From Thermoplasmata archaeon (GTDB lineage Archaea; Thermoplasmatota; Thermoplasmata; RBG-16-68-12; JAGMCJ01), in assembly GCA_046761045.1 (NCBI GenBank), contig JBHIFJ010000005.1:2361-66360 (forward strand): a DNA stretch of 64,000 nucleotides, in the 5' to 3' direction. The notes under the pieces are model-generated. The model worked only from the letters and a program-made list of their open reading frames with translations, did not search any database and was not told the DNA's origin. This document shows positions 1 to 57,107 of the stretch, one piece after another. The position numbers and the translations under genes are program-made. Position 1 is the first letter of the stretch. Each line of letters opens with the position of its first letter.

Positions 1-2958
1 GAGCTCGTTGACTCGAAGCCAAACTTCGGCTCCGCTGATGTCGACAACCCCCTCGAAGGCGTTCTGGAGCTGACGCCGGAGGTGGGTTTCTGGACAGTCG
101 AGGTCAAGGGAACGAACGTTCCCGCAGGTCCTCAGCCCTTCGCGCTGACGATTCTAGGTGCGACCGACCCGGATTACGGACAGCTCTTCCTGGACAAGGC
201 GACATATGGAGACTCGGACACAATCAACATCAGAGTGGAGGACTTGGATGCCATCTCCCCGGTGGTGGTAAAGGTCACAAGCGACACCGAGACAGCCGCT
301 GAGAACGTCACCCTGCTCCAAATCGGTACCGGGGTGTTCGAGGGGACCATAGACACCGCATACGGCATCCCTACCCCGGATGGCGTCCTGCAAGTGAGTG
401 AGCGCGACGCCGTCACAGTCGAGTACGTGGACGTCACACCTCCAGAGAAGTCGGTCCTGAAGACGGCAGTCATAGACGGCGCGCCTCCCATGATAACGAA
501 CGTGAAGGCGACCACGATAACCAACGCAGCCGCGACGATAGTGTGGAACACAGATGAATCTGCCACGTCGACGGTCTACTACGGCACCAGTCCGGCGTTC
601 CTGAACGGCACGGCGGTCAAGCTCCCAGCGGGATACTTCGTCTCGCACTCAGTCGATCTCGTCGGCCTTTCGACCGGCGTGAAGTACTACTTCGACGTCG
701 AATCTACTGATAGGTTCGGACACACGACCCTGGACAATAACGCTGGGCAGCACTACAGCTTCGTCACGACGGAGAAAGCAGAGCTACTGCTCGTCATCGG
801 CGACGCTACGTTCCCGCCAGAAAGGGTCGAGAGATACAGGAACGCATTCGACATGTTCGGCTGGTCCTTCAATGAGTGGTACGTCGAGAGAAGCGGAATT
901 CCGAGCCTCTCGCTATTGCAGGGGTACAAGGTGGTCCTCTGGCAAACCGGCTTGGAGGAGTACCCGCCCTTCGAGCCCCAAGAGATGACACTCATAACGA
1001 ACTATCTCGATGAGGGAGGAAGACTGTTCATCTCTTCCCACGATGTTGCCTGGGCCTTCGCGGCGGATTCGGGCTCCGAATACGCGACTGTTCAAACGGG
1101 TCAGTGGGTGAACTCGACCCTGAAGGCGGACTGGGATGAGGATCCAAGAAGCTGGACGGATATGGAGGGTGAGATCGGAGATCCGATCAGTAACGAGTAC
1201 GTAGGCGTGAATCGGATACCCTACATCCCGCACAGAAACGGTGGCGCGGGAGATGAGGTGACAGGCCAGCAGTACGGGGGGGCGTCTTCGAGCGTGTGGA
1301 AGGACTACGGCGGTCCCTATGCAAACGGTGTCACAGTTGGTATCAAGTGGGTTTCCTCCGGCCCGAACGGAACGGCTGGGCCAGGCAACGTCTGGGGAGG
1401 CCAGCCTTCGAAGATCGTGGACTGCTTCTTCGAGATTACGGGCCTGAACTTCATCTCGGCCAATGACTGGGACAGAGGTTCAGTCATCAACAAGACAATC
1501 GTGTGGTTGATAGGCCACGACCATCCAGACGTGCAGGTCATCTCGCCCAACGGAGGCGAGGTCTTCAGCGGGAACACAATCCAGATCGATTGGAGTCGGA
1601 ATGTATACTCCACAGGAATAAACCAGCAAACACTCTACTACAGCCCCGATGACGGACAGTCGTGGACAAAGATATCTCCCGATCCAGCGCCTGGCGATAC
1701 CACATACACGTGGGACGTCACAACGCTCGAGAATGGAATCAACTACCGCGTCAAGGTCATGGTCCAGGACGACGGCAACCCGTATCCGATGCTCAACGGT
1801 TCCGACGTCTCGGATGGCACATTCACGATCCTGAAGCCTTCAGGGGACAATCAGGGGCCGGTGACGATTCCAGGAAGCATCGTCCCGGATCCGAATCCCG
1901 TTGACAGGTACACGAGCATGACCTTCACGGCAATGGTGGATGACACGAACTTCGGGAACTCGACAATCCAGGCTGCAGAGTTCTATATCGATGCTCCTGG
2001 AGCCCCCGGAGGCGGTACACCGATGAATCCCGTGGACGCGTTCGACAGCGCCACAGAGGGGGTCACCTGGACCGGATCCGCGGACTGGCCGCCTGGAACG
2101 CACTGCATCTACGTGCACGGACAGGATGCTGCGAACAACTGGGGACAATGGGAGTCTAGGTGCTTCCTGGTCCACGGCAAGGTGGTTGCAGCGCCTTCCG
2201 ACTTCATGGCGGAGCTGACCGGACTCAACCATGAGGATGTCACGCTGACATGGACCCTTTCGCCGGATGACCCGACGGATGTGTCCCATTACTCCATATA
2301 CTACGGAGCCGCCTATGATCCGACAGCGGCAAGCTACGCATTCCTCACGACCGTGCCGAATCAAACGAGCATGTACGTGCATGCCGGAGCTGGCCTTGGT
2401 GGCTCGCTCTACTACGCCATCTACAGCAACGGAACGGGCGGAGACACGACGATGGCCTCCCAGCAGGCAGGCAAGTTCGTGAGAACGCTCTCGGCGGGCA
2501 TACATCTCGTCTCGATACCGATTACACCGTCGAACGCCTCCGTCAACAAGATCTTCCAGACGCTGGAGTATGACAAGGTGTGGACCTACGATTCATCGGC
2601 GAATCAGTGGCAGACCCACATGGCGTTCAAGCCCTACGGCGGGGACCTCACGACCATCACGCTGGACAAGGGCTACTGGGTCGAGGTGACTCAGGCGAGC
2701 GACTTCATCGTCGCCGGCTGGGCGCAGACAGTCGTGCCCATCCAGCTGATGCAGCCCTGGACATTGGCGGGCTATCCTTCGCTGACAGGTTCCATGACCG
2801 TCGGAGAGCTCAAGATGCTCACGGGAGCGAGCAAGGTCGAAGGCTACACCGCCGCGGGACCCTACTTCCTGCAGGAACTTGCGGACTCGTACGTCCTGGC
2901 AGCCGGGGAGGCATACTGGATTGGGAACGCCAACCTCACCTGGCAGGTCTACATCTAA
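1..2958 (+). CDS. C-terminal ~985 aa of a large secreted subtilase-paralogue surface protein (5' end lies outside the window). It carries FN3-like domains, a putative class-I glutamine-amidotransferase-like/ThuA-like domain, a BNR-like segment, and the C-terminal module shared with the proteins at 3000..6665 and 20324..22492.
   Basis: The reading frame is open from nt 1. The N-terminal part (ELVDSKPNFGSADVDNPLEGV...WTVEVKGTNVPAGPQPFALTILG) aligns with residues ~720-760 of the subtilase at 3000..6665 (NVLEGVHIKNPAVGAWTVEVIAHDVPNGPQPYALVALG). The C-terminal ~250 aa (TLTWTLSPDDP...YSIYYG...AKFVRTLSAG...WTYDSSANQW...GYWVEV...AYWIGNANLTWQVYI) is collinear with the C-termini of the two other secreted proteins. 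Confidence 0.7.
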   Translation, partial: ELVDSKPNFGSADVDNPLEGVLELTPEVGFWTVEVKGTNVPAGPQPFALTILGATDPDYGQLFLDKATYGDSDTINIRVEDLDAISPVVVKVTSDTETAAENVTLLQIGTGVFEGTIDTAYGIPTPDGVLQVSERDAVTVEYVDVTPPEKSVLKTAVIDGAPPMITNVKATTITNAAATIVWNTDESATSTVYYGTSPAFLNGTAVKLPAGYFVSHSVDLVGLSTGVKYYFDVESTDRFGHTTLDNNAGQHYSFVTTEKAELLLVIGDATFPPERVERYRNAFDMFGWSFNEWYVERSGIPSLSLLQGYKVVLWQTGLEEYPPFEPQEMTLITNYLDEGGRLFISSHDVAWAFAADSGSEYATVQTGQWVNSTLKADWDEDPRSWTDMEGEIGDPISNEYVGVNRIPYIPHRNGGAGDEVTGQQYGGASSSVWKDYGGPYANGVTVGIKWVSSGPNGTAGPGNVWGGQPSKIVDCFFEITGLNFISANDWDRGSVINKTIVWLIGHDHPDVQVISPNGGEVFSGNTIQIDWSRNVYSTGINQQTLYYSPDDGQSWTKISPDPAPGDTTYTWDVTTLENGINYRVKVMVQDDGNPYPMLNGSDVSDGTFTILKPSGDNQGPVTIPGSIVPDPNPVDRYTSMTFTAMVDDTNFGNSTIQAAEFYIDAPGAPGGGTPMNPVDAFDSATEGVTWTGSADWPPGTHCIYVHGQDAANNWGQWESRCFLVHGKVVAAPSDFMAELTGLNHEDVTLTWTLSPDDPTDVSHYSIYYGAAYDPTAASYAFLTTVPNQTSMYVHAGAGLGGSLYYAIYSNGTGGDTTMASQQAGKFVRTLSAGIHLVSIPITPSNASVNKIFQTLEYDKVWTYDSSANQWQTHMAFKPYGGDLTTITLDKGYWVEVTQASDFIVAGWAQTVVPIQLMQPWTLAGYPSLTGSMTVGELKMLTGASKVEGYTAAGPYFLQELADSYVLAAGEAYWIGNANLTWQVYI

Positions 2959-2999: not shown

Positions 3000-5900
3000 A
3001 TGACGAAAGGCAGACTCGCGATACTGCTATCCCTGATTCTCCTCCTTACACTGATTCCCATGAACACCAGCTCGACCCAGGGGGATATAATCGACGTCAG
3101 AATATCCATCTCCCCGGAGCAGCTGGACGCTCTCGCATCGTACCACATAATAGAGGAGTACGAGAGCTTCGTCGTGGTCAGTATAACGAGCGACGAGGTC
3201 GAGGAACTTACCGCCCGGGGCTTCGACGTTGAGGTGGAGGACCTCCACAGGATAGGCATCAGGGGATTCTCCTTCGATTCGAGGGACGGAGAGCCGCCCA
3301 TCCCGGAGGAACTCAGGACATCGGGCTATCCTTCTGGGGATGGCTACTACATCGTGCAGTTCCACGGACCCGTGAAGGAGGAATGGAAGACCTCCCTGCA
3401 ACGGGCTGGCGCCGAGATTCTCTCCTACGTGCCTTCGAACGCCTTCCTGGTCAGAACGAGGACGGGGATCTCCTCCCTCAGTGAGGTTCAGGCGGTGCAA
3501 TGGGTGGGACTCTTCCAACCCGCCTACAAGATCGCCCCGGAGCTCGCTTCCTCGAGCGGGACGTTCGAGGCAGAGATAATCACCTTCCGTCCGGAGGGTG
3601 TCAACTCGGTGGTCAATGCCCTTCCGCAGGCGTCCGTGCTCTACTCCTACAGGGGCAAGGACTTCGGCAGAGTGGATGCCAGACTGAATCGGGACCAGCT
3701 CGTGAAGGTGGCGAACCTGGTCGATGTCCACTTCATACAGGAGCGTCAGGTTCCTCAGGTCCTCAACAGCAGGATGCAATGGATAATGCAGACGAACGTC
3801 AATGGCAACAGGCGCGTGTGGGACATGGGAATCCGCGGTGAGGGACAGCTCGTCGGGTTCTCCGACACCGGCTTGGATTACGACCATCAGTTCTTCCGCG
3901 AGGACGCTGGGACGATACAGAGCGGGGATATCTACAACGTGACCGACATGACCCGCAGGAAGCTGGTGCGCTACTGGGTGCACGGCGACCCGACCGATGA
4001 GTGGTCCTGGAAGGATAGCCCGAACAGATACGACCCGGGCGCCGGATGGGCGACCCTTGGCCACGGGACAATGGTGGCGGGCACCTTTGGAGGCAATGAC
4101 GATCCTATGGGGTCCAGCGACAACGACGGAGGGGCGAAAGCCGCCAAGATATTCTTCCAGGATATAGGCAGCGTGGACATGCGGGGCGGCGTAAGGAGGG
4201 ACAGCCTAAAGTACATTCCATCTGACTACGACAACCTCTTCGGCCCCGCCTACGACGCCGGCGCGAGGGTCCATTCCAATTCCTGGGGCTCCTCGACGAG
4301 CGTATACACGTTCGAGGCGCAGATGGTCGACGAGTTTATGTGGAACCACCCTGACATGCTCATCGTATTCTCAAACGGGAACGGAGGCCCAACCTCGTGG
4401 TTCCAGTACGACGTCGCGAGCCCCGCCACGGCGAAGAACGCCCTGTCGTCGGGTTCGGGACAGACCTCTCCGAATCAGGACAGCGTTGCTGGATACAGCA
4501 GCAGAGGGCCCACCTCCGACGGAAGGCGGAAGCCCACCGTGACGGCCGTCGGTGAGGGCGTGTCGTCCATGTCCACTGGCGATCCGAAGGATAACACAAA
4601 CACCGCCTGGGAGAGCAGTTGGGCGGGCACGAGCTACTCGGCACCGGACCATGCTTCGCTGGCTGCCATGGCCCGCCAGTACTTCACAGAGGGGTGGTGG
4701 CCCACGGGGACGAAGATTCCCGGCGATGCGTTCAATCCCTCAGCGGCGCTCCTGAAGGCGGTCCTGGCCGCGAGCGGACAACAGATGACCGGCTCATTCT
4801 CGGACAGCAAGAGCGAGGACACCTGGCCGAACAACTCGCAGGGCTGGGGTAGAGTGCTCCTGGACGACGCATTGCACTTCACCGGCGACACGAGGCGCAT
4901 GGAGCTCGTGGACGAGACGCTTGGGCTGAGCACGGGCGAATCGAACATCGAATCCTACTTCGTTCTCGACTCCGGCGAGCCGCTGAGAGTGATGCTCGCC
5001 TGGACCGACCATCCCGGCGTGGCCTGGACGACCCCGAACCTGGTCAACGACCTGGACCTGCTTGTCACCGACCCGACTGGGAACACCTACAAGGGCAACG
5101 TCTTCGGGACGATGGCTCAGGGCGAGTCTCAGCCGAACACGGGCAGCTACGACAGGCTCAATGTGCTCGAGGGTGTTCACATAAAGAACCCTGCTGTCGG
5201 TGCGTGGACCGTTGAGGTCATCGCTCACGACGTGCCCAACGGACCGCAGCCGTACGCGCTCGTGGCACTCGGGGACCTCGGAACGGGCTACGGGCAGGTC
5301 TTCCTCGACCAGACGGTCTACGGGGACGGCGACACAATCGGGATAACGGTTAGGGACACTGGTCCTACGTCTATCAACGTCACCATATGGAGCACGACGG
5401 AGCCTGGTCCCGAGGTCGTTAGCCTGACCGAGACGTCACCTGGCTCGGGAAGATGGGTTGGCAACATCAACACCACTCTCGGTTTCCCGAGTCCTGATGG
5501 CCAGCTTCAGGTGTCCGATGGCGATCTCGTCACCGTTCAGTACGACGACATGAATCCCATCCACACATCCACAGACACGGCCACGATTGACGGCTCCTAT
5601 CCGATCATCTTCAACATCTTCGTGATCAATGTCACCTCCACCACGGCGGACGTGATTTGGAGCACGAACGAGCCCACTGATTCGAGGGTGTACTACAACA
5701 AGAGCGACCCGCTCATCCTGCAGGAGTTCGTGGGCGCGTATCGCACACAGCACGATGTCCTGCTTACGGGCCTCGAGCCGCAGACGACATACAGGTTCGA
5801 CGTGGAGTCCTCGGACCCGTACGGCCATACCGTCGTGGAAAACAATGGCGGGATGCATTACGAGTTCACCACGCTGAAGCCGATGCCCGAGCCTCCGACG

Positions 5901-6665
5901 AATCTGAGGGCCTGGCTCTTCGGGAACAACTATGAGCACGTCCACATAGAATGGGACCTGTCCACCGATGATGCGACAATGGTGGACCACTACGCGGTGT
6001 ATTACAGCACGACCGGCTACGACCCGGACGGGACGGGGTACAAGTTCCTGGCGGCCTCGCCGAAGGGAATCAACTTCTTCGACCACTATCTGGCGGGGCA
6101 TCTGAATCCGTGGAACATCTTCTACTACGTGCAGGCGAACTACAGCGGCGGTCTGCCCGGAAGGGCGGAGGACCAGGTCGCCAAGTTCACCAGGTGGATG
6201 CCGACCGGCAATGTCCTCCTGTCCTTCCCGCTCAAGATGGTCAACCAGACGATAGAGTACGCGCTCAAGACGGTGAGCTGGGACAGGGCGTGGACCTATG
6301 ATGCGTGGACGGGGCGCTGGATGGAGTACCACATCTGGAAGAATTGGAACGACCTCCTGACGGTGGATCAATCAATGGCGATCTGGGTGAACGTGACATC
6401 GCCCGAACCCGTGACTCACGCGGGTGTGGTGCCGAAGAACTTCACAATCTATCTCAAGGAGGGATGGAACCTCGTCGGGTTCCCCTACGTGCGGTGGGAC
6501 TACACGGTCGACGACCTCGCGACGGAGACGGGTGCCGAGCGGGTGGAGAGCTTCAATGTCGTTGCGCAGCCCTACTACCTGTGGGACCTTCCCGGGCCGA
6601 CATTCATGGCTCCTTGCGAAGGGTACTGGATAAAGGTTCCCGCTGATACTGTTTGGGTGCTCTGA
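3000..6665 (+). CDS. Secreted subtilisin-like serine protease (peptidase S8) with C-terminal FN3-like domains and the shared C-terminal module.
   Basis: N-terminal signal peptide MTKGRLAILLSLILLLTLIPMNTSS. S8 catalytic triad motifs are present: Asp (GFSDTGLDYDHQ), His (HGTMVAGT) and Ser (GTSYSAPDHA). A ctattatag TATA-like box lies 28-36 nt upstream of the ATG. Confidence 0.85.
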   Translation: MTKGRLAILLSLILLLTLIPMNTSSTQGDIIDVRISISPEQLDALASYHIIEEYESFVVVSITSDEVEELTARGFDVEVEDLHRIGIRGFSFDSRDGEPPIPEELRTSGYPSGDGYYIVQFHGPVKEEWKTSLQRAGAEILSYVPSNAFLVRTRTGISSLSEVQAVQWVGLFQPAYKIAPELASSSGTFEAEIITFRPEGVNSVVNALPQASVLYSYRGKDFGRVDARLNRDQLVKVANLVDVHFIQERQVPQVLNSRMQWIMQTNVNGNRRVWDMGIRGEGQLVGFSDTGLDYDHQFFREDAGTIQSGDIYNVTDMTRRKLVRYWVHGDPTDEWSWKDSPNRYDPGAGWATLGHGTMVAGTFGGNDDPMGSSDNDGGAKAAKIFFQDIGSVDMRGGVRRDSLKYIPSDYDNLFGPAYDAGARVHSNSWGSSTSVYTFEAQMVDEFMWNHPDMLIVFSNGNGGPTSWFQYDVASPATAKNALSSGSGQTSPNQDSVAGYSSRGPTSDGRRKPTVTAVGEGVSSMSTGDPKDNTNTAWESSWAGTSYSAPDHASLAAMARQYFTEGWWPTGTKIPGDAFNPSAALLKAVLAASGQQMTGSFSDSKSEDTWPNNSQGWGRVLLDDALHFTGDTRRMELVDETLGLSTGESNIESYFVLDSGEPLRVMLAWTDHPGVAWTTPNLVNDLDLLVTDPTGNTYKGNVFGTMAQGESQPNTGSYDRLNVLEGVHIKNPAVGAWTVEVIAHDVPNGPQPYALVALGDLGTGYGQVFLDQTVYGDGDTIGITVRDTGPTSINVTIWSTTEPGPEVVSLTETSPGSGRWVGNINTTLGFPSPDGQLQVSDGDLVTVQYDDMNPIHTSTDTATIDGSYPIIFNIFVINVTSTTADVIWSTNEPTDSRVYYNKSDPLILQEFVGAYRTQHDVLLTGLEPQTTYRFDVESSDPYGHTVVENNGGMHYEFTTLKPMPEPPTNLRAWLFGNNYEHVHIEWDLSTDDATMVDHYAVYYSTTGYDPDGTGYKFLAASPKGINFFDHYLAGHLNPWNIFYYVQANYSGGLPGRAEDQVAKFTRWMPTGNVLLSFPLKMVNQTIEYALKTVSWDRAWTYDAWTGRWMEYHIWKNWNDLLTVDQSMAIWVNVTSPEPVTHAGVVPKNFTIYLKEGWNLVGFPYVRWDYTVDDLATETGAERVESFNVVAQPYYLWDLPGPTFMAPCEGYWIKVPADTVWVL

Positions 6666-6708: not shown

Positions 6709-8529
6709 TTACAGAACGCCAAACAGGAACGAGGAGGCCAGGAAGGACAGGGAAAAGATGAGGGTTGCCATAGGAATGGCCCTCCCGATTGCTCTCATGA
6801 GTTCCGGACGGTCACCGCCCTGTAGCCCTTCAACGAGATAACTGGCCACCGCCGAATTGCAGAAGAGGAGGCCTCCAAGTATGAGGATGAACGAACTGAG
6901 ATTGGAGGACTGAGAGAACCTTTCCATCAGCAGCGACATCGAAGCAGTCACTCCGAGAACAAGTGGAGAGAAGAAGGTCGTGGTGTTGCGCAATGTCTGA
7001 ATGGTCGGCCTGATTTCGTCTCGTGCATTCTCCTCAATCCTCGACACCTCCTTCAGATTGGAGGAGATGTGCTTCGCTATCCTCCCTGCAAGAGCAGGGT
7101 CCTTCTCGGCAATACTGAATATCATCCTCAGATTCGAGGTGACACCCGTCCCTGTGGGCGCTAGACTGTCAACCAGTGCTGTCCCCACATCGGACTTGCC
7201 CCTTGACAAGTGATATAGAGCCTGAGCGAACTTACCCGACAGCTCCGTTCCCTCCATCTTTCTCCCGGTCTTCAAGAGAGCGGTCTCAGGAGGCTCGCCT
7301 GCCAAGAGGAATCTGCCCAGGTGCTCAGCCGCTTCGGGGAATTCCCTCGCGAGTTTGGACGAGTCACCGCCGTGTCTAGACCTTCCCGCCCAAAGCATGG
7401 AGAATGATATCAGGAGCGAGGAGAAGGCGAGAATCGCGAGGAATGCATATGGGGTTTCGATGTGCCATATCACGACGACGGCCACGAGAAGGGAAATGGT
7501 AGCGAGAAGGGCCAGAACTGGCGGGAGTACATCTGAGAGCTCCAACGGCCGGGCGGTCCTCGAGGGAATGGGCCTTCCGGACAGCACCTCCCTGCAATAG
7601 AGGAGCATGAATAGCGGGAAGGCGACGTCTAGGATGACTGCTACCAGGCCGGGATGGAGACCGTTGGCTTGGCGCCCTTCGATGTTCTCGTCAGCAAGCC
7701 CAATCGGACTCGCGAGAGCCAAGGATGACATCGGCAGAAAGGAGGCGATCATCACTGGGAGCACTATCCCAAGCGCGAAGACGACACTGATGGGTGCCTT
7801 GAGGGAGAAAAGGAATCGCCGAAGCTTTCTCCTTGTGTGAGCGTGAATGGCCGAAAGCAAGAAGCCCAGATCATCCCCGGAACTCTCCTCCACGGCTCCA
7901 GACAGGCTCAACATTGCCTCCCCAAATCCCCTGTTCCTGTCTTTCCATTTCCTGGCATAGCTCACGAATTCCTCTGGCAGGCTCCTGCCTTTCAGATAGA
8001 CAAGCCACAGTAGCCGCTCAAACCCAACCTTGACTTCACCACGAGAGTTCCTGGAGACGGCCAAGACCGCATTCTCGTGTGAAAGCGCTTCTCCAGCGCC
8101 TCCTATCATGTGGCTCATGACCTCGGGGGCCTCTCTGAAGGATGATTTCTGCATCGCTACGGCAAGTCCTCTTGGAAAGGAGACGACCGTCCTACTGAGA
8201 ATGAAGGCGAGCGTGACCACGAGAACGAGGACAATTGGATGAGCTTGAGCCAGGACGAGAGCAGGAAGGAGGACCAGAGAGAGCATGAATGCCAAACGTC
8301 CGCCCGATAGGACCTCCTCGGACCGCAGCCCGAGTCCAGCAAAGAGGATGTCATCTTCGAGTTCCATTCTGTCAGCCTCCATCATCCGCCGTAGCCTGCT
8401 TCTCGGGTCCTCAGTGGGTCTCTCGGATCGTGGCCAAATCGGTCCTATGCACCTCCTACAACGCAGGGGTCCCAGCATGGAATGAGCGAATCTGCAGTAC
8501 CTCGTGAACATCTCACCTCGACTAGGCAT
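6709..8529 (-). CDS. FlaJ/TadC-like polytopic membrane platform protein of a type IV pilus / archaellum-type assembly system.
   Basis: 606 aa with many hydrophobic segments and T2SS-F-like architecture. It lies immediately downstream of the FlaI-like ATPase, with an 8-nt overlap typical of flaI-flaJ operons. Confidence 0.7.
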   Translation of the reverse strand: MPSRGEMFTRYCRFAHSMLGPLRCRRCIGPIWPRSERPTEDPRSRLRRMMEADRMELEDDILFAGLGLRSEEVLSGGRLAFMLSLVLLPALVLAQAHPIVLVLVVTLAFILSRTVVSFPRGLAVAMQKSSFREAPEVMSHMIGGAGEALSHENAVLAVSRNSRGEVKVGFERLLWLVYLKGRSLPEEFVSYARKWKDRNRGFGEAMLSLSGAVEESSGDDLGFLLSAIHAHTRRKLRRFLFSLKAPISVVFALGIVLPVMIASFLPMSSLALASPIGLADENIEGRQANGLHPGLVAVILDVAFPLFMLLYCREVLSGRPIPSRTARPLELSDVLPPVLALLATISLLVAVVVIWHIETPYAFLAILAFSSLLISFSMLWAGRSRHGGDSSKLAREFPEAAEHLGRFLLAGEPPETALLKTGRKMEGTELSGKFAQALYHLSRGKSDVGTALVDSLAPTGTGVTSNLRMIFSIAEKDPALAGRIAKHISSNLKEVSRIEENARDEIRPTIQTLRNTTTFFSPLVLGVTASMSLLMERFSQSSNLSSFILILGGLLFCNSAVASYLVEGLQGGDRPELMRAIGRAIPMATLIFSLSFLASSFLFGVL

Positions 8530-10153
8530 ATCCTGCCCTCACGTCAATCTGTCTTTTCCATCGTTCCAGCAGGTCCTCGCCAGAGTAGCCCTTCTCTGTG
8601 AGTGACAAGAAAACGGAGTTGGCTAGCGATTGGAACTTCGCTGAGAGGACGCGACTCCCCAGTTTCCTTGCGAGACTGGCCACGTACCTCTTGCATTCCG
8701 CCCTCAAGTGGATACTCTCAAGGGCCTCCGCGTAACTCATTCCCCAGGAGTTCGCAATCTCCCGTATCCTTTGTGAGTCAGAGAGGAGGCTCTCGGTTTC
8801 GATGAGCGAGTCTCTCGAGATGCTGTAGTGCATGAGCTGCAGGAAGCTACCATCGCAGGACTCCTTGTTGAGCTCAGAGATCTCGATTACTCTTCGTCTA
8901 GGATTCAGGGTCCCTCGAGGCCTCAGAAGTCCGGCCACGATGACGATGTCAGTCGCTGAGAAGGACTGAGGAGGGATGCCGAGATCGTGGACCACCCGCT
9001 CATAAACACTTCTGGAGGAGCTCCCGTGTATCGTCCCGAGAACCGCCGAGCCAGCCGTCCCGACACGCATCGCCTCGTAAAGAGTCCGAGCCTCTCTGCC
9101 TCTCACCTCTCCGAGGACTATTGCAGACTCTCCGAGGCGCAACGAGACCCTGAGCGCTTCATCTGCCGTCGTTTCGCTCCCGGAGATTCCTGAGCATACG
9201 TAGAGGCTCTGGACCTTGTATCCGAGTTTCCTGAGCTCCGCGCAGGGCAACTCCAGCGTGTCCTCAATCGTCAGAATTCTCTGGCTTGTCGGGAATTCGA
9301 ACATCATAGCCCCGAGGAGCGATGACTTCCCCGCCCCGCGACTGCCCGTCACCAGGATTGTTGAGTTACCATCCATCAGGAAAGAGATGAGGCCGGCCGC
9401 AAGAGGTGTCATACTTCTGTGATAGACCAATCTCGTCAGGGTCCACGGGTCAGACGAGTGTCTGCGCAAGGCAAGAGCGATGCCATCCGGACTGAGTGGG
9501 GGACGCACGGCTGTCAGTCTTGCGTTCATGTCTCCCAAGTCCATCTCAAGAACGGGATTCCTCTCCGAAAACGGCCTCTTGCTCATGAGGAGGAGTTTCG
9601 AGACTATGTTCTTGAGACCTCCCTCATCCATGCGAATGTTGGAAACGCACTTCTGGTGAAATCTGTGCTCTCCGGCGTGTGCAACCGTGAGGTGTATGGG
9701 GACCATCTCGCATGGTGCATCTAAGAAGATGTCCTGGACGTTTGGGTCCGAGAGAAGAATCTCGAGGACTCCGAATCCCACGGAATTCCTCTCAATCATC
9801 TCAGCAAGATGGCGTGCCCTCATCATACGCTCGGCCTTTGCCATGGTTCTGGGCAGACGAAGGGCTATGAGGTCACTCGCCCGATTCTTCACGTAGCGCC
9901 TGACCTGCGAAAGATTCCCCAGATCGAGGATATCAGGCGGGATAGACCATATCTCCTCCACGACCTCCCAGAGAAGCGAGAGCTCGTCTTCCTTCACCTC
10001 GGATGAGGGTGGTGAAAGCCAGTACAGGAAGTCGGTCGAGTTGTCCATCTGATAGATGCTTATGCGTGATTCACCGACGGAGTAGCTCATGACGGCTTCA
10101 AGGTCAGGAGGGTCGCCTAGTATCCAAAAGGAGCTGAAGAAGGGTCTCCACAT
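8522..10153 (-). CDS. FlaI/TadA/VirB11-family secretion ATPase (type IV pilus or archaellum assembly ATPase).
   Basis: Walker A box ILVTGSRGAGKSSLLGAMM followed by an Asp box (RILTIEDTLEL). The size of 543 aa is typical of archaeal FlaI. Confidence 0.85.
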   Translation of the reverse strand: MWRPFFSSFWILGDPPDLEAVMSYSVGESRISIYQMDNSTDFLYWLSPPSSEVKEDELSLLWEVVEEIWSIPPDILDLGNLSQVRRYVKNRASDLIALRLPRTMAKAERMMRARHLAEMIERNSVGFGVLEILLSDPNVQDIFLDAPCEMVPIHLTVAHAGEHRFHQKCVSNIRMDEGGLKNIVSKLLLMSKRPFSERNPVLEMDLGDMNARLTAVRPPLSPDGIALALRRHSSDPWTLTRLVYHRSMTPLAAGLISFLMDGNSTILVTGSRGAGKSSLLGAMMFEFPTSQRILTIEDTLELPCAELRKLGYKVQSLYVCSGISGSETTADEALRVSLRLGESAIVLGEVRGREARTLYEAMRVGTAGSAVLGTIHGSSSRSVYERVVHDLGIPPQSFSATDIVIVAGLLRPRGTLNPRRRVIEISELNKESCDGSFLQLMHYSISRDSLIETESLLSDSQRIREIANSWGMSYAEALESIHLRAECKRYVASLARKLGSRVLSAKFQSLANSVFLSLTEKGYSGEDLLERWKRQIDVRAGYA

Positions 10154-13261: not shown

Positions 13262-15361
13262 GTGATACGATACACCGATGAGGAGCTTCTATCGAAGTGG
13301 GAAGAGTTCTTCGAGCAGTACGGTTACGAGTCCAAGATAACCGCCGTCGCTGATGTCTTTCCCGAGAAGAGGAGCCTGGAGGTCAGGTTCGAGGATATAG
13401 ACAGATACGATACGGACTTCGCCATGCACTTTCTCAGGAAGCCCGCCAGGACCATTTCGGCGGGCGAGGAGGCGATCTCAAAGGCGGTTCCGCCAACAGC
13501 CGAGGATGTCTCGATCCACATGAGGGTCAAGGGCCTTCCGCGGGATCATAGAATCACCATACGGGACCTGAGGAGCAAGCACGTCGGGCGGTTCGTCGCC
13601 GTCGAGGGTCTCGTGCGAAAGGCAACGGAAGTCCGGCCCATGATAATCGAGGCGACCTTCGAGTGCAGGAGGTGCGGGCACAGGTTCACCGCATTGCAGG
13701 AAGGTATGGCCTTTCGCGAGCCGCTGGAGTGTCCGAAGGACTCAGGCGGTTGTGGCAAGAGCGCCAGTTCAACGCGGTTCGAACTTCTCCTCGATGAGTC
13801 AAAGTTCATGGACACGCAGAAGATAGAAGTTCAGGAGAAGCCGGAGATAATCAGGGGCGGCGCGCAGCCCGAGAGGCTGACCGCCTACTGCGTGGATGAC
13901 ATAGCCGGCATCATCTCACCCGGGGACAGGATAGTCCTCAACGGCGAGCTCAAGAGCGTCCAGAGGACGAGGTATCGCGCCAAGTCCACCGTCTTCGACA
14001 TCTTCATCGACGCCAACAGCGTCGAGTCGGAGCAGATGGAGTTCGAAGAAATCGAGGTCACCGCCGAGGACATAGATGCGATCAGGGCGGCCGCGGCGGA
14101 CGAGAGGATTCTCGAGAACATCGTCTCCTCGATTTCCCCCGTCTTGTACGGCCTGCGGACGGAGAAGGAAGCGCTCGTGCTCCAGCTCTTTGGCGGCGTC
14201 CCGAAGGAGATGCCTGACGGCACGAGGATAAGGGGAGACATTCACATCCTTCTCGTCGGCGATCCCGGAACCGGGAAAAGCCAGCTGCTCACCTACATGA
14301 GCCAGCTCTCTCCGCGGTCCGTCTACACGGCTGGAAAGGCATCGTCCGCGGCTGGATTGACCGCGGCGGCAGTCCGTGACGAGTTCGGCGAGGGTCGCTG
14401 GACCCTTGAGGCTGGCGCGATGGTCCTGGGAGACGGCGGACTCGTGTGCATCGACGAGATAGAGAAGATGAACCCGCAGGACAGGGACGCCATCCACCTT
14501 GGGATGGAGCAGCAGTTCATCTCCATCTCGAAGGCAGGGATAACCGCCACGCTTCCGTCGCGATGCGCCGTCCTAGCAGCCGCCAATCCGCGGTTCGGCA
14601 GGTTCGACGAGCACAAGTTCATTTCGGAGCAGATCGAGCTCTCCCCGACGCTGCTCTCAAGGTTCGACGTCATCTTCTCGATACTCGACATCCCGGAGTC
14701 AAGAAGGGACATGGACATGGCCGACCACATGCTCAAGGGTCACCTCGTGGGCGAGCTCAAGAAGAAGAGGATGGATGACCGCATTGCTGCCGAAATACCC
14801 GATGTGGAGGTCTTCGAGCCGCACTTCGAGCCCGAGTTCCTTAGGAAATACGTATCCTACGCGAGGCAGGTGAATCCCGTCCTCACGCCAGAGGCGATGG
14901 AGGTCATAAAGGCGAAGTACCTCGAGATACGAAAGCAGGGCGAGGTGGAGGGTGCGGCGGTTCCCATCACACCGAGGCAGCTGGAGGCCTTCGTAAGGCT
15001 GTCGGAGGCGAGCGCGAGAGCGCGATTGAGCGATTCCGTCTCCGAGGACGACGCTCAGCGGGCGGTGCGGATCGTCGAGTACTGGCTACGCAAGGTCGCT
15101 GGTGAGGCGGGAAGGTTCGACATAGACATAATCGTGACGGGGACGAGCACATCGCAGAGGGAGCAGATGATAGCGCTCCGGGACATAATCCAGGAGCTCG
15201 CGGGAGAAGAGGGCAGCGCCGACATATCGGACATCAAGTCCGTCGCAGAGGAAAGGGGCATTCACTCCAGTCGTGTCGAGTCCCTGCTCAAGCGATGGAG
15301 TCAAGAGGGGGAAGTCTATTCTCCGTCCAAGAACAAGTACAAGCTCGTCGGACGGCGATAG
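13262..15361 (+). CDS. mcm: MCM replicative helicase.
   Basis: C4 zinc finger (CRRCGH...CPKDSGGCG). AAA+ Walker A ILLVGDPGTGKSQLL, Walker B DEIEKM and arginine-finger SRFD are present. The length is 699 aa. Confidence 0.9.
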   Translation: MIRYTDEELLSKWEEFFEQYGYESKITAVADVFPEKRSLEVRFEDIDRYDTDFAMHFLRKPARTISAGEEAISKAVPPTAEDVSIHMRVKGLPRDHRITIRDLRSKHVGRFVAVEGLVRKATEVRPMIIEATFECRRCGHRFTALQEGMAFREPLECPKDSGGCGKSASSTRFELLLDESKFMDTQKIEVQEKPEIIRGGAQPERLTAYCVDDIAGIISPGDRIVLNGELKSVQRTRYRAKSTVFDIFIDANSVESEQMEFEEIEVTAEDIDAIRAAAADERILENIVSSISPVLYGLRTEKEALVLQLFGGVPKEMPDGTRIRGDIHILLVGDPGTGKSQLLTYMSQLSPRSVYTAGKASSAAGLTAAAVRDEFGEGRWTLEAGAMVLGDGGLVCIDEIEKMNPQDRDAIHLGMEQQFISISKAGITATLPSRCAVLAAANPRFGRFDEHKFISEQIELSPTLLSRFDVIFSILDIPESRRDMDMADHMLKGHLVGELKKKRMDDRIAAEIPDVEVFEPHFEPEFLRKYVSYARQVNPVLTPEAMEVIKAKYLEIRKQGEVEGAAVPITPRQLEAFVRLSEASARARLSDSVSEDDAQRAVRIVEYWLRKVAGEAGRFDIDIIVTGTSTSQREQMIALRDIIQELAGEEGSADISDIKSVAEERGIHSSRVESLLKRWSQEGEVYSPSKNKYKLVGRR

Positions 15362-20323: not shown

Positions 20324-22492
20324 ATGAGAAGACGCAGCCTCGCGGCAGTGATTCTCATATTCCTGGGCACATTTTCGCTTGCTTTCTCGCTCCTGCCTGA
20401 TAGCGCTCAGGCCATCACACACTATGTAGGTGGAGGTGGCCCCGGCAACTACACAACGATACAAGCCGCCGTTAATGCTGCCAACGCCGGTGACATCATC
20501 TATGTCTTCGGCGGAACGTACAGCGAAAACGTCATTGTATCCAAGTCACTATCTCTAATCGGAGAGGACAAGCAAGCAACCATAATCGACGCGGGTTCCA
20601 CCGGTAGCGCGGTTACCATAACGTCCGATTCAGTCAACATTTCTGGATTCACTCTGACGAACAGCGGGTCACTTGCCGGAGATGCTGGAGTGATTCTAGA
20701 TTCAGTGCATTACTGCACCATCACCGATGTCATCACGACTGGCAACACCGATGGTATCTTCCTATTCTCCTCGGGAACAAACACAATATCCCTCGTTGAG
20801 ACATACTCGAATTTCTGGAGTGGAATAGTGACGATGTTTTCAAGCAGCAACGTCATAGATAGGAACAATGTCCATTCCAACTTCTTCGGAATCACTCTGG
20901 ACCGCTCAAGTAGCAATAAGGTGCGCTGGAACAACGTGACAGACAACTTCAATCAGATTACCCTTTCTGGTGACTTCGCTAATGTCATAGCATATAATAA
21001 CATCTCAGACGGTTCACGCGGCATATGGCTCGATGATTCAGAAAACGCCATAATCAAGGAAAACAACATCTCCTCCCACACTCTCGTGGGCATACGATTT
21101 CAAGCCTCCCTTACGGCAACGCTGACAGGCAATGCGATGGTCGAGAACGGAATCCATATAGAGGGGGACTCAGTGCAGTACTGGAACACTCACGATATCG
21201 ATGATTCCAACACCGTGAATGGTAAGCCCGTCTACTATTGGAAGGATGCAACGGGTGGCATGGTCCCGTCAGACGCGGGTCAAGTGATATTGGCAAACTC
21301 CGCGAATGTGATAGTCCAAAATCAGAATATCACGAATACCACGACAGGAATTCAGCTGGGGTTCTCGTCAGGTAACACGATCGCGAACAACACGATTTGG
21401 TACAGCAACAATGGCATCCATATGGCATCGTCAGCGGGGAACTGGGTATACCACAATGACTTCTTCTTCAACTCGGCACAGGCCTACGACGGTGCCCAGA
21501 ACAACATTTGGGATAATGGCTATCCATCAGGCGGAAACTACTGGTCCGATTACGCAGGTCTTGACCAGTTTTCAGGACCCAACCAGGATCAACCTGGAAG
21601 TGACGGCATAGGCGATACCCCTCGCACCATAGACGCTGCCGACGAGGACAGATACCCCTTGATGTCTCCGTACTCGACTTCCGTACCCCCTGAGCCGCCG
21701 ACACTGCTATTTGTCAATCTGAGCGGCAAGGACTGGGAGAATGTCACGCTTACATGGTCACTATCCCCTGATGACGGATCTGGACTGGAATCCGTAGTCG
21801 GCTACAGGATCTATAGGAATGTGAGCTATAATCCTCAAGGACTGGGTTACTCACTCATCGCCACTCTTCCGAATCAGACTTCTGTCTTTGTCGACAACCT
21901 GTCTGGTGAAGGAGATCCAAGCGATTACTTCTACAGGGTTTGTGCTTTTGACGGATACGGAAAGGCGGGCTGCTCTGACGATCAAGCCGCTAAGTTCACC
22001 CGCCCACTTGCACAGGGGCCGAACCTGGTCTCCGTTCCTCTCATCCAATCCAACGAGTCCATAGAGGCCGTTCTCCGAACAGTCGATTATGACGAAACGT
22101 GGTACTACGACTCCTCCTCCCAAGAATGGAAATGGTACATGGCCTCCAAGGGCTACAGGAGAGGACTGTGGAACATGGATCACACAATGGGACTATGGGT
22201 GAACGTTACGGGCGACTGCAACCTCACCGTGGCAGGAATCGTTCCCAGCCAGACCACGATGTCCCTACGCGAGGGATGGAATCTCGTGGGGTTCCCTTCT
22301 TTCAATGCATCCTATGCTGTTTCGGACTTGAAGGCCGAAGTGGGAGCAGTGAGGGTGGAGGGATACATCTCCATGCCTCCATTCACGCCGTACATGTTGG
22401 AAGTTCTCGGCGATGGGGTGGCACTTGGGGCGGGATTCGGGTACTGGGTGAAGGTGGTGTCGGATATTGTTTGGGTACTCGATGCGATCTAG
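20324..22492 (+). CDS. Secreted right-handed parallel beta-helix (NosD/pectin-lyase-fold) surface protein with a C-terminal FN3-like domain and the shared C-terminal module.
   Basis: Signal peptide MRRRSLAAVILIFLGTFSLAFSLLPDSAQA. Repeated ...N.I..N... beta-helix rungs follow ITHYVGGGGPGNYTTIQAAVNAANAGDIIYVFGGTYSE. The C-terminus TLTWSLSPDDG...YRIYR...AKFTRPLAQG...GYWVKVVSDIVWVLDAI completes the match. Confidence 0.8.
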   Translation: MRRRSLAAVILIFLGTFSLAFSLLPDSAQAITHYVGGGGPGNYTTIQAAVNAANAGDIIYVFGGTYSENVIVSKSLSLIGEDKQATIIDAGSTGSAVTITSDSVNISGFTLTNSGSLAGDAGVILDSVHYCTITDVITTGNTDGIFLFSSGTNTISLVETYSNFWSGIVTMFSSSNVIDRNNVHSNFFGITLDRSSSNKVRWNNVTDNFNQITLSGDFANVIAYNNISDGSRGIWLDDSENAIIKENNISSHTLVGIRFQASLTATLTGNAMVENGIHIEGDSVQYWNTHDIDDSNTVNGKPVYYWKDATGGMVPSDAGQVILANSANVIVQNQNITNTTTGIQLGFSSGNTIANNTIWYSNNGIHMASSAGNWVYHNDFFFNSAQAYDGAQNNIWDNGYPSGGNYWSDYAGLDQFSGPNQDQPGSDGIGDTPRTIDAADEDRYPLMSPYSTSVPPEPPTLLFVNLSGKDWENVTLTWSLSPDDGSGLESVVGYRIYRNVSYNPQGLGYSLIATLPNQTSVFVDNLSGEGDPSDYFYRVCAFDGYGKAGCSDDQAAKFTRPLAQGPNLVSVPLIQSNESIEAVLRTVDYDETWYYDSSSQEWKWYMASKGYRRGLWNMDHTMGLWVNVTGDCNLTVAGIVPSQTTMSLREGWNLVGFPSFNASYAVSDLKAEVGAVRVEGYISMPPFTPYMLEVLGDGVALGAGFGYWVKVVSDIVWVLDAI

Positions 22493-28676: not shown

Positions 28677-29168
28677 TCAGGGTAGGGAATCTCGGGCCTG
28701 TGGACCAGTGGGATCGTCGGAAACACCAATCCCTCCCCCAGGCGTAGAATGATACCACTCAACAGCGATGTTCCCAAGATAGTCTTCGTCCAGGGCTGCT
28801 TTCTCTCCTGCAGGCTCCGTGGGTGGCCCCAATGGCATCGTGCCTGCATCGTTCGACTTCGGTCCTTCGCCGACGGCATTGACCGCGGTGACAGAGTAGT
28901 CGTACCACTGACCTGGCATTAGGCCTGCATCCGTATACGTTAACACATTGCCCACTGCGATTACCGTCTCATTGCCGAGCGTTCTCCTGTGGATTCTGTA
29001 GTTGGAGACCGGAAACCCGCCTTCGAAAAGCGGCGGTTCCCACGTAAGCGTAATCTGATAGTAGCCCTCCGCCGCACTCAGATTCCGAGGAGCCGAGGGC
29101 GGTAATGGAGATGGGATGAACGGATTCATGAGCGGGTATCTGTCCTTCGAATCTATCCCGCCGGGCAC
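28677..29168 (-). pseudogene. C-terminal continuation (FN3-like domain) of the beta-helix surface protein, separated from it by an in-frame TAG.
   Basis: Reading the minus strand across 29172-29174 gives GIGDVP-TAG-VVPGGIDSKDRYPLMNPF. This is collinear with GSDGIGDTPRTIDAADEDRYPLMSPY in the intact paralogue at 20324..22492. Confidence 0.5.
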
Positions 29169-29171
29169 GAC

Positions 29172-50156: not shown

Positions 50157-51251
50157 CTACTTCATCAGACCCAGCTGGCTCAGCTTTTCCGGCAAGTACG
50201 TGTCCGTCGCGAAATCCAGTCCGTACTTGGCCAGCGCCTGCTGTTCGGCCTTCTTCTTGATCTTCAGCATCAGCTCGATCTCGTCCTTCCAGAACCTGTC
50301 CTTGAACCTCGGATCGGTGAGCTCCGACTCAAGGGCCTTGATGTCCTGCCCGCTCAGCTTGTCGGTGGGAAGCTCATAGTTAAGAATGTCCGAGGCGGTT
50401 ATCCCCAAGTAGACTGCGGTTGGCGTTGCCAGGTACTCAGAGATGTGCGCCGTCTTGATCGCACCGTAGGCAACGGACGCGAATATCCTGAAGGACCACG
50501 GATCGCCGTCGGTGAAGACGATGATCGGCACGTTCATCTCCTCGTTCAGCCGCTTCATGAACCTGCGCGTCGAGCGGGCCGGCTGTCCCTTGAGATGTAT
50601 CAGAAGACATCTTGAGGACTCATCGAACCCGTTCTCGACGAGCCTGTCGAACATACCGCCCGTCTCGATGGCAATGGCGAAGTCCACATCGGAATCGATG
50701 AAGCGTATCTTGTCCTCCTCGACATTGTAGGGGATCCCATAACCGGAGTCACCCACGTCATCGCGGCAGTTGATTCTCTTCCTCTCCCCCCTCCTGTTCG
50801 TCTCCTCGATGGTGAGGTTCCCCATGACTCTGGCACCGTCCTCCTCGGGCCTCAGCTTGAAGTCCTCGCGCATGCATCCCGTGATTATCTCCATATCTTC
50901 CGCCAAGAGATTGGACTCGTTCTGCGATCCGAACTTCGCGAGTCCCCAGCCCTCCGATATGTAGTACATCTCCCTGAGCGTCGAGGACTTGTTCTGCTCT
51001 ATCATCTCTCGAATGAAGTCCAGCATGTACATCGTTCGGAGGAGCATATAGGCCCCGCGCAGCTTCTTTGCGGTTCTCGCCCCCTTCGCACTGCCGTACT
51101 TCCACACGCCCTTCCTGGGCATGAAGCTGATGTTGGTCTTCGTCCTGAGCGGGATGCTCATCTTGGGTATGTCACCAGACTCGAGCTGGCTGTATATGCT
51201 CTCGGCGATGCTGTAGAGCTCCTCAATAGGCTTCTGATTCCTGTTTTCCAT
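50157..51251 (-). CDS. top6A: DNA topoisomerase VI subunit A (Spo11 homologue).
   Basis: Toprim segment [15 protein letters not shown] and the winged-helix/5Y-CAP region. The start was set at MENRNQ (ATG 51251), overlapping the top6B stop by ~29 nt. Confidence 0.85.
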
Positions 51252-56859: not shown

Positions 56860-57107
56860 TTCATCAGAGATTCCGTGCTACTGGAATAATAAGGTTTGCA
56901 TGCGCATGCCGTGTTGGATGATTCCCAGATACCGCTCTCGACCGAGCGGACCGAAACCTTTTTCTGGAGCAAAGCGGATAGAAGGGAAGTCCCTTAGTGG
57001 ATTTCTCGGAACCTGGAGGGATCGTGGTCACGCGAGGGAGGTGGAGATTGATGATTGGAATCCCAGATGTGTTGAGCGGAAGGCATAGTGGAATTTTGCG
57101 CCTGCGA

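What the first reader, a model, noticed from the sequence alone, without database searches (positions are those of the whole stretch)
5860..6665. An undescribed ~170 aa C-terminal module shared by three or four otherwise unrelated secreted proteins
The S8 subtilase (3000..6665), the truncated paralogue (1..2958; module at ~2200-2958) and the NosD-like beta-helix protein (20324..22492; module at ~21700-22492) all end with the same architecture. An FN3-like unit comes first (TLTW.LSPDD...Y.IYY/YRIYR). It is followed by AKF.R....G.NL+S.P+.....+...L.T+.+D..W.YD......W......, then ...G.W+.V, then ...L.EGWNL.GFP, and finally a terminal GYW+KV...+W. The terminal tails are VWVL, VWVLDAI and LTWQVYI. 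I do not recognise this as a known sorting signal (it is not PGF-CTERM, not Por/T9SS CTD and not a dockerin). It may be a lineage-specific cell-surface anchoring, S-layer-binding or secretion-recognition domain. The interrupted paralogue at 28677..30806 lacks it.
Basis: seen in the sequence. Interest (0 to 1): 0.7.

Follow-up and report, generated by a model that had tools for sequence, protein, structure and literature searches.

The report
Undescribed C-terminal cassette on archaeal exoproteins
Three secreted proteins of an uncultivated Thermoplasmata archaeon end in the same ~260-residue cassette (an FN3-like domain plus two copies of an ~80-residue beta-rich unit). No curated family or solved structure searched matches it, it always sits at the very C-terminus, and it most likely keeps exported proteins attached to the cell surface.

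The parts
5883..6155 (+). FN3-like domain of the cassette in the S8 protease (aa 962-1052 of ORF 3000..6665)
   Evidence: Family fn3 HMM, E 5.9e-30. The AF2 model shows a beta-sandwich at pLDDT >94. The equivalent domain in relatives P0098 and P0264 hits Pfam PF00041.
6171..6440 (+). Repeat 1 of the double-repeat module in the S8 protease (aa 1058-1147)
   Evidence: half1 HMM, E 1.3e-30. hhalign of half 1 against half 2 gives 98.6%. AF2 module model pLDDT 94.9.
6444..6665 (+). Repeat 2 of the module in the S8 protease (aa 1149-1221, ends ...GYWIKVPADTVWVL) plus the stop codon
   Evidence: half2 HMM, E 5.8e-29. Translation.
3000..5882 (+). Passenger of the S8 protease: signal peptide, Peptidase_S8 domain and beta-sandwich domains
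   Evidence: Pfam PF00082, E 5e-31. The N-terminus MTKGRLAILLSLILLLTLIPMNTSS is signal-peptide-like. NCBI names the protein 'S8 family serine peptidase [Thermoplasmata archaeon]', MFQ6106426.1.
2185..2457 (+). FN3-like domain of the cassette in the 5'-truncated S8 paralogue (ORF runs off the window start; 1..2958)
   Evidence: fn3 HMM, E 1.6e-26.
2461..2958 (+). Double-repeat module of the truncated S8 paralogue (repeat 1 at 2461..2730, repeat 2 at 2740..2949), a two-residue tail and the stop codon
   Evidence: Module HMM, E 4.7e-60. tblastn E 1e-38 to 5e-50 against the other two copies.
20324..21685 (+). Passenger of the NosD-like protein: signal peptide plus parallel beta-helix
   Evidence: Pfam NosD E 6e-38 and Beta_helix E 2e-20. 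The N-terminus MRRRSLAAVILIFLGTFSLAFSLLPDSAQA is signal-peptide-like.
21686..21976 (+). FN3-like domain of the cassette in the NosD-like protein
   Evidence: fn3 HMM, E 3.4e-39.
21980..22492 (+). Double-repeat module of the NosD-like protein (repeat 1 at 21980..22255, repeat 2 at 22256..22480), the tail DAI and the stop codon
   Evidence: Module HMM, E 4.2e-75.
28677..30806 (-). Interrupted NosD-like paralogue (in-frame stop; NosD, then fn3) that lacks the module. It serves as a negative comparison.
   Evidence: no module HMM hit.
56997..61898 (+). 1633-aa CARDB/TSP3/fn3 surface protein that ends in a classical C-terminal TM helix plus a charged tail. It shows an alternative anchor in the same genome.
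   Evidence: Pfam. C-terminal sequence ...LVSLAIALLAVLIATCIIAILYFRRRGEG....

Best explanation
The cassette is a self-folding, non-catalytic C-terminal unit. It consists of a short Pro-rich linker, an FN3-like beta-sandwich, and two tandem copies of an ~80-aa beta-rich unit (six strands and one short helix each). It is appended to Sec-exported proteins of uncultivated Thermoplasmata. The most likely role is to hold otherwise soluble exoproteins (proteases, beta-helix proteins, sialidase-like and propeller proteins, a solute-binding protein) at the cell surface. It would do this by binding non-covalently to a conserved envelope component, either a surface glycoprotein or glycan layer or a membrane-anchored partner. 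In function this would resemble bacterial SLH or GW modules, and it would take the place that a C-terminal TM helix or a T9SS C-terminal domain occupies in homologous proteins.

Shown: the architecture, the internal duplication, the strict C-terminal position, the passenger diversity, the extracellular character, and the absence of matches to known families.

Inferred: the binding and retention function and the identity of the partner.
For: 1. Real, conserved cassette. There are three copies in the window. An exhaustive profile search finds 6315 representatives at E<=1e-3 and 434 at E<=1e-30.
2. Position. In 148/148 top representatives there is exactly one module, it ends 1-4 aa from the C-terminus, and the FN3-like domain lies 1-9 aa upstream. 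In distant relatives the double repeat ends <=4 aa from the C-terminus in 72 of 85.
3. Passengers are diverse and of extracellular type: NosD/Beta_helix 22 of 54, CARDB 11, BNR 6+3, PQQ and WD40 propellers, PKD, VWA, S8 and SBP_bac_5. Of 136 Met-start representatives, 115 have a signal-like N-terminus.
4. Choice-of-anchor pattern. Among 120 homologues of the S8 passenger, 22 (Thermoplasmata/Thermoplasmatota MAGs where named) end in the module, four (P0377, P0379, P0417, P0449) end in a TM helix, and most of the rest carry FlgD_ig and/or Por_Secre_tail domains. Where those are named they are Eisenbacteria, WOR-3 or Gemmatimonadetes.
5. Module carriers have no other membrane anchor: C-terminal hydropathy is <=0.8. 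Another surface protein in the same window uses a C-terminal TM anchor.
6. An SBP_bac_5 protein carries the cassette. Binding proteins of this family normally work tethered to the cell surface (established knowledge).
7. Extracellular signature. The module has 2.15 N-glycosylation sequons per 100 aa, against 0-1 in cytoplasmic proteins of the window. Conserved Cys pairs flank it.
8. Several carriers per genome, often adjacent (window; L007; L017; shared locus-tag prefixes). This is typical of anchoring and sorting domains.
9. The sequence is strongly conserved across unrelated passengers (consensus), which suggests one common partner rather than diverse substrates.
10. The model is confident and compact: pLDDT 96.4 and pTM 0.90 with the FN3-like domain, pLDDT 94.9 and pTM 0.88 without it.
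Confidence: 0.45

Rival explanations
1. Ligand- or glycan-binding module (CBM- or lectin-like). The tandem repeats would form a pseudo-dimeric binding cleft that targets the enzymes to a substrate such as detrital polymers or another cell's surface, rather than to the producer's own envelope.
Against: The passengers are not a coherent substrate class: proteases, beta-helix proteins, propellers, a solute-binding protein and VWA. The strict extreme C-terminal position is not needed for a substrate-binding module. High conservation across passenger types argues for a single partner. No CBM or lectin family or fold was hit.
Confidence: 0.2
2. Co-assembly or oligomerisation module. Cassettes would bind each other, or bind a membrane-anchored cassette-only protein, so that diverse exoproteins form a common surface layer or scaffold, in the manner of cohesin-dockerin complexes or S-layer lattices.
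For: Membrane-tethered cassette-only proteins exist in DPANN archaea, in conserved clusters of surface-protein genes. Passenger-less signal peptide + FN3 + repeat proteins exist. The internal pseudo-dimer suggests a capacity for repeat-repeat contacts. There are several carriers per genome.
Against: No membrane-tethered cassette-only gene was found in the window or among the Thermoplasmata hits; the short hits there look like fragments. No multimer modelling was possible. This reading overlaps with the best explanation, because it is also a retention mechanism.
Confidence: 0.15
3. Folded C-terminal sorting or secretion signal, analogous to the T9SS C-terminal domain. It would be recognised by a dedicated machinery after Sec export and possibly removed and replaced by a covalent anchor.
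For: The extreme C-terminal position holds across the whole superfamily. It occupies the position of T9SS-type C-terminal domains in homologous proteases. There are many cargo types per genome.
Confidence: 0.12
4. A generic structural spacer with no specific function, spread by duplication and exon-like shuffling; alternatively, a chance similarity or annotation artefact.
For: FN3-like domains are common spacers. Carriers cluster as neighbours (window; L007; L017), which is consistent with local duplication.
Against: E-values of 1e-38 to 1e-75 exclude chance. Paralogous copies are only 31-44% identical yet keep about 40 invariant positions. The unit is kept at the exact C-terminus in thousands of clusters, which indicates selection on a specific function.
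Confidence: 0.05

Closest known systems
SLH domains and GW modules (bacterial non-covalent cell-wall retention repeats)
   Same: Tandem repeats appended to diverse secreted proteins. GW modules are ~80-aa C-terminal repeats with a conserved Gly-Trp, and the present unit also has an almost invariant G-W (GWNL). The proposed mode of action, non-covalent retention at the producer's surface, is the same.
T9SS C-terminal domain (Por_Secre_tail PF18962, FlgD_ig PF13860)
   Same: A folded beta-rich domain at the extreme C-terminus of many unrelated exported proteins per genome. Where named, the homologues of this very S8 protease that carry these Pfam domains are bacterial, and their C-terminal tails look like such domains.
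   Different: No sequence or profile similarity. The size and architecture differ: 2 x ~80 aa plus FN3, against one ~80-aa Ig-like sandwich. It occurs in archaea, where no T9SS is known (established knowledge).
Archaeal anchoring strategies: C-terminal TM helix, PGF-CTERM/archaeosortase, N-terminal lipobox (review PMC6098224)
   Same: It occupies the C-terminal position that TM anchors occupy in paralogous or homologous surface proteins.
   Different: It has no hydrophobic helix, no tripartite sorting signal and no basic tail. A folded non-covalent anchoring domain is not among the three anchoring strategies that have their own sections in that review.
RCK_C / TrkA_C domain fold
   Same: It is the best structural match of a single repeat: a small beta-rich domain with one helix. 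RCK_C domains also work as pairs.

Membership tests
T9SS C-terminal sorting domain (Por_Secre_tail / FlgD_ig type) | Sequence match to PF18962 or PF13860 or equivalent profiles | tested here: not met
   No such Pfam hit in the three window proteins at E<=1 or in 42 module sequences at E<=10. hhalign of the repeat profiles against an alignment of 53 C-terminal tails (last 90 aa) from S8 homologues with T9SS-type ends gives probability 0.2-1.3%.
T9SS C-terminal sorting domain (Por_Secre_tail / FlgD_ig type) | Single ~70-100 aa Ig-like beta-sandwich at the extreme C-terminus | tested here: not met
PGF-CTERM / archaeosortase-type sorting signals | Tripartite C-terminus: short motif, hydrophobic TM helix, basic tail | tested here: not met
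   The C-termini are beta-strand sequences (...GYWIKVPADTVWVL and similar). The maximum Kyte-Doolittle hydropathy (19-residue window) in the last 60 aa is 0.56 for the window S8 protein and at most about 0.8 in module carriers, against 2.4-3.2 for TM-anchored homologues.
SLH domain | Match to the SLH profile (PF00395) | tested here: not met
   No hit.
GW module (Listeria InlB/Ami type) | Match to the GW profile; SH3-like fold; strongly basic repeats that bind lipoteichoic acid | tested here: not met
Dockerin (cellulosome) | Duplicated ~22-aa Ca-binding loop-helix motif; match to the Dockerin_1 profile | tested here: not met
   No hit. The predicted structure is mainly beta.
Fibronectin type III (first unit of the cassette) | ~90-aa seven-strand beta-sandwich that matches fn3 profiles | tested here: met
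   AF2 predicts a beta-sandwich with six strands of three or more residues (E7-14, 20-26, 37-43, 55-61, 66-69, 80-87). The family HMM of this unit cross-hits the Pfam-defined fn3 domains of ORFs 56997..61898 and 28677..29168 (E 3e-5 and 8e-5). The equivalent unit in relatives is PF00041-positive. Pfam fn3 itself does not reach threshold on the window copies, so the domain is divergent.
RCK_C / TrkA_C | Significant structural and sequence similarity to TrkA_C (PF02080) | tested here: inconclusive
Any curated protein family (Pfam-A 2025, NCBIfam 20.0) or solved structure (PDB 2026) | Hit covering the double repeat | tested here: not met

The most novel reading that the evidence does not exclude
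The cassette is the recognition element of a previously unknown archaeal surface-display system. Thermoplasmatota would hang a large and varied exoproteome on their envelope through this double-repeat unit. DPANN archaea would carry membrane-tethered cassette-only versions. The envelope partner could be a glycoprotein layer or a tethered cassette partner. This would be a fourth, non-covalent anchoring strategy in archaea, based on a fold not seen among solved structures.
Probability: 0.2. Interest if true: 0.8.

Novelty: new variant of a known kind. Interest (0 to 1): 0.6.

Why it matters
Uncultivated Thermoplasmata are thought to be important degraders of detrital protein and polymers. How they keep their exoenzymes at the cell is unknown. 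The review read here gives its own sections to only three archaeal anchoring strategies: TM helices, archaeosortase-dependent lipidation and lipobox lipidation.

This cassette marks thousands of protein clusters and has a confident predicted fold with no close solved relative. It swaps with TM anchors and T9SS-type C-terminal domains in homologous proteases. It is therefore a strong candidate for a new surface-retention device.

It also gives a practical handle. A profile of the cassette allows a census of the displayed exoproteome in metagenomes. The cassette is also a compact target for structure determination and binding assays. Even if the anchoring idea is wrong, the family deserves a curated domain entry.

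Tried and rejected
- Pfam-A and NCBIfam scans of the full proteins at E<=1 gave nothing over the last ~170 aa. A Pfam scan of 42 module sequences at E<=10 gave nothing consistent. DUF1737 appeared in 3 of 42 with a best E of 5e-4 and was judged to be chance.
- A PDB sequence profile search returned 0 hits at E<=10.
- Foldseek against the PDB gave nothing: best E 0.094, TM<0.3.
- The AlphaFold DB libraries (afdb50, afdb_sample) were not available, so annotated AFDB neighbours could not be checked.
- BFVD gave one hit, named 'putative hemin binding protein', from an uncultured marine phage. The name is uninformative and I could not follow it up.
- The idea of a T9SS-type C-terminal domain was tested by profile-profile comparison and rejected.
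- The idea of a basic polyanion binder like GW or SLH was tested by pI and rejected.
- Full-text search for the motif strings (GWNLVS and similar) returned 0 papers. Two topical searches found no description of the domain. One search failed on a term that was too short.
- tblastn against the phage and plasmid collections found no match.
- The genome-contig scan returned only 8 loci because the peptide patterns were narrow. It cannot be used as a census.
- The search for homologous proteins with the module profiles returned only proteins of <=350 aa, many of them gene fragments. Its length distribution is not informative. The exhaustive search supplied full-length carriers.
- Looking for permease genes next to the SBP_bac_5 carrier found none, so that protein may not be a transporter component.
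Full report
OBSERVATION

The window is archaeal: it encodes MCM at 13262..15361 and topoisomerase VI subunit B at 51223..53244. The S8 and NosD-like proteins are identical to NCBI entries MFQ6106426.1 and MFQ6106443.1, both labelled 'MAG: Thermoplasmata archaeon', on a 75,288-bp contig.

The quoted motifs and the tails VWVL, LTWQVYI and VWVLDAI are present.

In tblastn of the last 270 aa against the window, each copy finds the two others and nothing else. E-values are 1e-38 to 1e-53 at 34-41% identity. An HMM built from family members hits only these three ORFs in the six-frame translation (E 1.7e-60 to 1.7e-75; next best 1.7). The interrupted NosD paralogue at 28677..30806 has an in-frame stop, NosD and fn3, but no module.

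ANATOMY

The ~165-aa 'module' is not a single domain. Its two halves align to each other in a profile-profile comparison with probability 98.6% and E 7e-16. The repeated unit is about 75-90 aa. Its signature is [L]xxGWNL[VI][SG]xP, then a short helix, a W/Y-rich hairpin, and finally LxxGxGYW[VI]xV followed by a last strand.

AlphaFold2 with a 37-42 sequence alignment gives confident models. FN3 plus module scores pLDDT 96.4 and pTM 0.90. The module alone scores pLDDT 94.9 and pTM 0.88. Each repeat has six beta-strands and one short helix.

The unit in front is a divergent FN3-like beta-sandwich. Its family HMM cross-hits Pfam-defined fn3 domains elsewhere in the window. The equivalent unit in relatives is PF00041-positive. 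A short Pro-rich linker (PEPP or P.PP) precedes it.

The conserved cassette is therefore: linker, FN3-like domain, repeat 1, repeat 2, then 0-3 residues and the stop codon. Window coordinates are listed under 'parts'.

IS IT KNOWN?

- Pfam-A (models to 2025) and NCBIfam 20.0 give no hit over the double repeat in the three proteins at E<=1.
- Scanning 42 module sequences at E<=10 gives no consistent family.
- A family profile finds no PDB chain at E<=10.
- Foldseek against the PDB gives nothing (best E 0.094, TM<0.3).
- BFVD gives one hit, a protein of an uncultured marine phage (E 1.5e-4, TMq 0.65).
- The AlphaFold DB libraries were unavailable.
- A full-text search for the motif strings returned no paper, and topical searches found no description.
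- All database names for module-only hits are 'hypothetical protein' or the name of an unrelated passenger domain.

Within the limits of these libraries the unit is undescribed.

DISTRIBUTION AND ARCHITECTURE

An exhaustive HMMER search of 1.84 billion cluster representatives found 6315 proteins at E<=1e-3, 2909 at E<=1e-10 and 434 at E<=1e-30.

In all 148 newly retrieved top representatives there is exactly one module. It ends 1-4 residues from the C-terminus, and the FN3-like domain lies 1-9 residues upstream. Of 136 that start with Met, 115 have a hydrophobic, signal-like N-terminus.

A Pfam scan of 54 of them shows very diverse extracellular-type passengers:
- NosD/Beta_helix: 22
- CARDB: 11
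- BNR: 6+3
- PQQ and WD40 propellers
- PKD
- VWA
- SBP_bac_5
- S8

Named hits are Thermoplasmata, Thermoplasmatota or Methanomassiliicoccales MAGs. Several MAGs carry multiple copies, as shown by shared locus-tag prefixes. Carriers are often adjacent: in the window, in L007 and in L017.

N-glycosylation sequons are frequent in the module (2.15 per 100 aa) and rare in cytoplasmic proteins of the window (0-1 per 100 aa).

More distant relatives have the same double repeat, again ending within 4 residues of the C-terminus in 72 of 85 cases. They include:
- ~225-aa proteins of Nanoarchaeota and Woesearchaeota, made of an N-terminal TM segment plus the double repeat;
- ~280-aa proteins made of a signal peptide, fn3 and the double repeat;
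- proteins with Flg_new, CARDB or NosD domains.

One distant relative comes from a MAG labelled only 'bacterium'. Most of the others are unnamed metagenome proteins. The family is therefore broader than one lineage.

In DPANN contigs the TM-tethered form sits in a conserved cluster. The cluster has a small AbrB-like gene, a Cys-rich 530-630-aa membrane protein and further large surface proteins.

FUNCTION: WHAT THE EVIDENCE BEARS ON

The most informative test was a 'choice-of-anchor' comparison. The S8 passenger (aa 1-960) was used to collect 120 homologues, and their C-termini were classified.
- 22 end in the module. Where named, they are Thermoplasmata or Thermoplasmatota MAGs.
- Four (P0377, P0379, P0417, P0449) end in a hydrophobic TM helix with a polar or Pro-rich tail.
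- Most of the rest carry FlgD_ig and/or Por_Secre_tail domains and have C-terminal tails typical of T9SS signals. Where named, they are Eisenbacteria, WOR-3 or Gemmatimonadetes.

The cassette thus occupies the slot that anchoring or sorting devices occupy in homologous proteins. Module carriers have no other anchor. Within the same window, the 1633-aa CARDB/TSP3 protein uses a classical C-terminal TM anchor instead.

A solute-binding-family protein (P0118, SBP_bac_5, E 5e-32) also carries the cassette. Such proteins normally function tethered to the cell. However, no permease genes flank this one.

The module shares no profile similarity with T9SS-type C-terminal domains (probability <=1.3%). 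It has no tripartite sorting signal. It is mildly acidic, with median pI 5.3, unlike GW and SLH modules. It is rich in Trp, 4.4% against 2.2% in passengers.

INTERPRETATION

I favour a non-covalent cell-surface retention module at about 0.45. It would bind a conserved envelope component and display diverse exoproteins on it. The reasons are the strict C-terminal position, the substitution for TM and T9SS-type anchors, the passenger diversity, the multiplicity per genome, and the high conservation across unrelated passengers.

This is inference. No partner is known, and the envelope of the lineage is uncharacterised. In cultured Thermoplasmatales that lack an S-layer, a disordered glycoprotein layer has been proposed as an anchoring matrix for other machinery (PMC12448462). 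That would be one conceivable target.

The rivals are:
- a glycan- or ligand-binding module (0.20), supported by the aromatic richness, the RCK_C-like pairing and the stand-alone forms;
- a co-assembly module (0.15), supported by the TM-tethered cassette-only proteins in DPANN archaea;
- a folded sorting signal (0.12), supported by the position but weakened by the single-membrane hosts, the size of the cassette and the lack of similarity to C-terminal sorting domains;
- a functionless spacer or artefact (0.05).

One exception to 'always secreted' is P0018. It is a 272-aa cassette-only ORF without a signal peptide in a Methanomassiliicoccales MAG, seen in several samples, with only nine open codons upstream. 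It is probably a remnant of a larger gene.

COMPARISON WITH THE KNOWN, AND NOVELTY

In function, the closest analogues are SLH and GW repeats, the T9SS C-terminal domain and archaeal C-terminal TM or PGF-CTERM anchors. The cassette fails the defining sequence and structure tests for each (see the membership table).

A 2018 review of archaeal cell-surface biogenesis has sections for three anchoring strategies: TM anchoring, archaeosortase-dependent C-terminal lipidation and N-terminal lipidation (PMC6098224). A folded non-covalent anchoring domain is not among them.

I rate this as a new domain family, and apparently a new fold variant, of a known functional kind: a C-terminal non-catalytic targeting module on exoproteins. 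Interest is 0.6. It is widespread, clean, structurally distinct and testable, but the function is still inferred.

Noticed in passing
window 6709..8529 (-) and 8522..10153 (-): These two overlapping genes lie convergent with and immediately downstream of the S8 gene. One is a T2SSE-type ATPase (PF00437, E 7.5e-19). The other is a 606-aa polytopic membrane protein with a weak T2SSF hit (E 1e-3, below the Pfam cut-off). Together they look like the ATPase and platform of a type IV filament (pilus or archaellum-like) system. No link to the cassette was established.
   Followed up: partly
window 28677..30806 (-): This NosD-like paralogue has an in-frame stop (…GDVP*VVPGG…). After its fn3 domain it has a truncated second FN3-like start instead of the cassette. 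It is probably a decaying pseudogene, or a sequencing or assembly error.
   Followed up: partly
window 56997..61898 (+): This is a 1633-aa surface protein with an InhA-like MAM domain, four CARDB domains, DUF4350, fn3 and a long run of thrombospondin type 3 (Ca-binding DxDxDGxxD) repeats. It ends in a C-terminal TM helix and a charged tail, which is a different anchoring solution in the same genome.
   Followed up: partly
window 61679..64000 (+): A further large secreted protein with PKD, VWA and PKD domains runs off the 3' end of the window. Its C-terminus, and therefore any cassette, cannot be seen.
   Followed up: no
L009 6001..6819 (P0018; Methanomassiliicoccales MAG TET91959.1 cluster): This cassette-only ORF (FN3-like plus double repeat, 272 aa) has no signal peptide and only nine open codons upstream. 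It lies 95 bp from a divergent gene and next to heterodisulfide-reductase-like and MTHFR genes, and it is found in several samples. It is either a gene remnant or a genuine non-secreted form.
   Followed up: partly
L011 4246..10568 and L015 4289..8472 (DPANN contigs): A conserved gene cluster surrounds the TM-tethered double-repeat protein. It contains a divergent 139-aa gene, a 60-66-aa AbrB/SpoVT-like gene overlapping the start, the 225-240-aa double-repeat protein, an overlapping 530-630-aa Cys-rich protein with a TM segment and coiled coil, and then sequon-rich surface proteins. It may be a dedicated surface-structure operon.
   Followed up: partly
window 1..2958, aa ~255-520 of the truncated S8 paralogue: An inserted domain (…LLLVIGDATFPPERVERYRNAF…GGRLFISSHDVAWAF…) also occurs in S8 homologues such as P0385 and P0391. 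It resembles the DUF4350/ThuA-like region found in ORF 56997..61898. Its function here is unknown.
   Followed up: no
BFVD entry A0A8D9C8P8 (not in the window): This is the only significant structural neighbour of the double repeat in any library searched. It is a 587-aa 'putative hemin binding protein' of an uncultured marine phage (Foldseek E 1.5e-4, TMq 0.65, 13% identity). The fold may therefore also be used by viruses, or the contig may have been misassigned.
   Followed up: no
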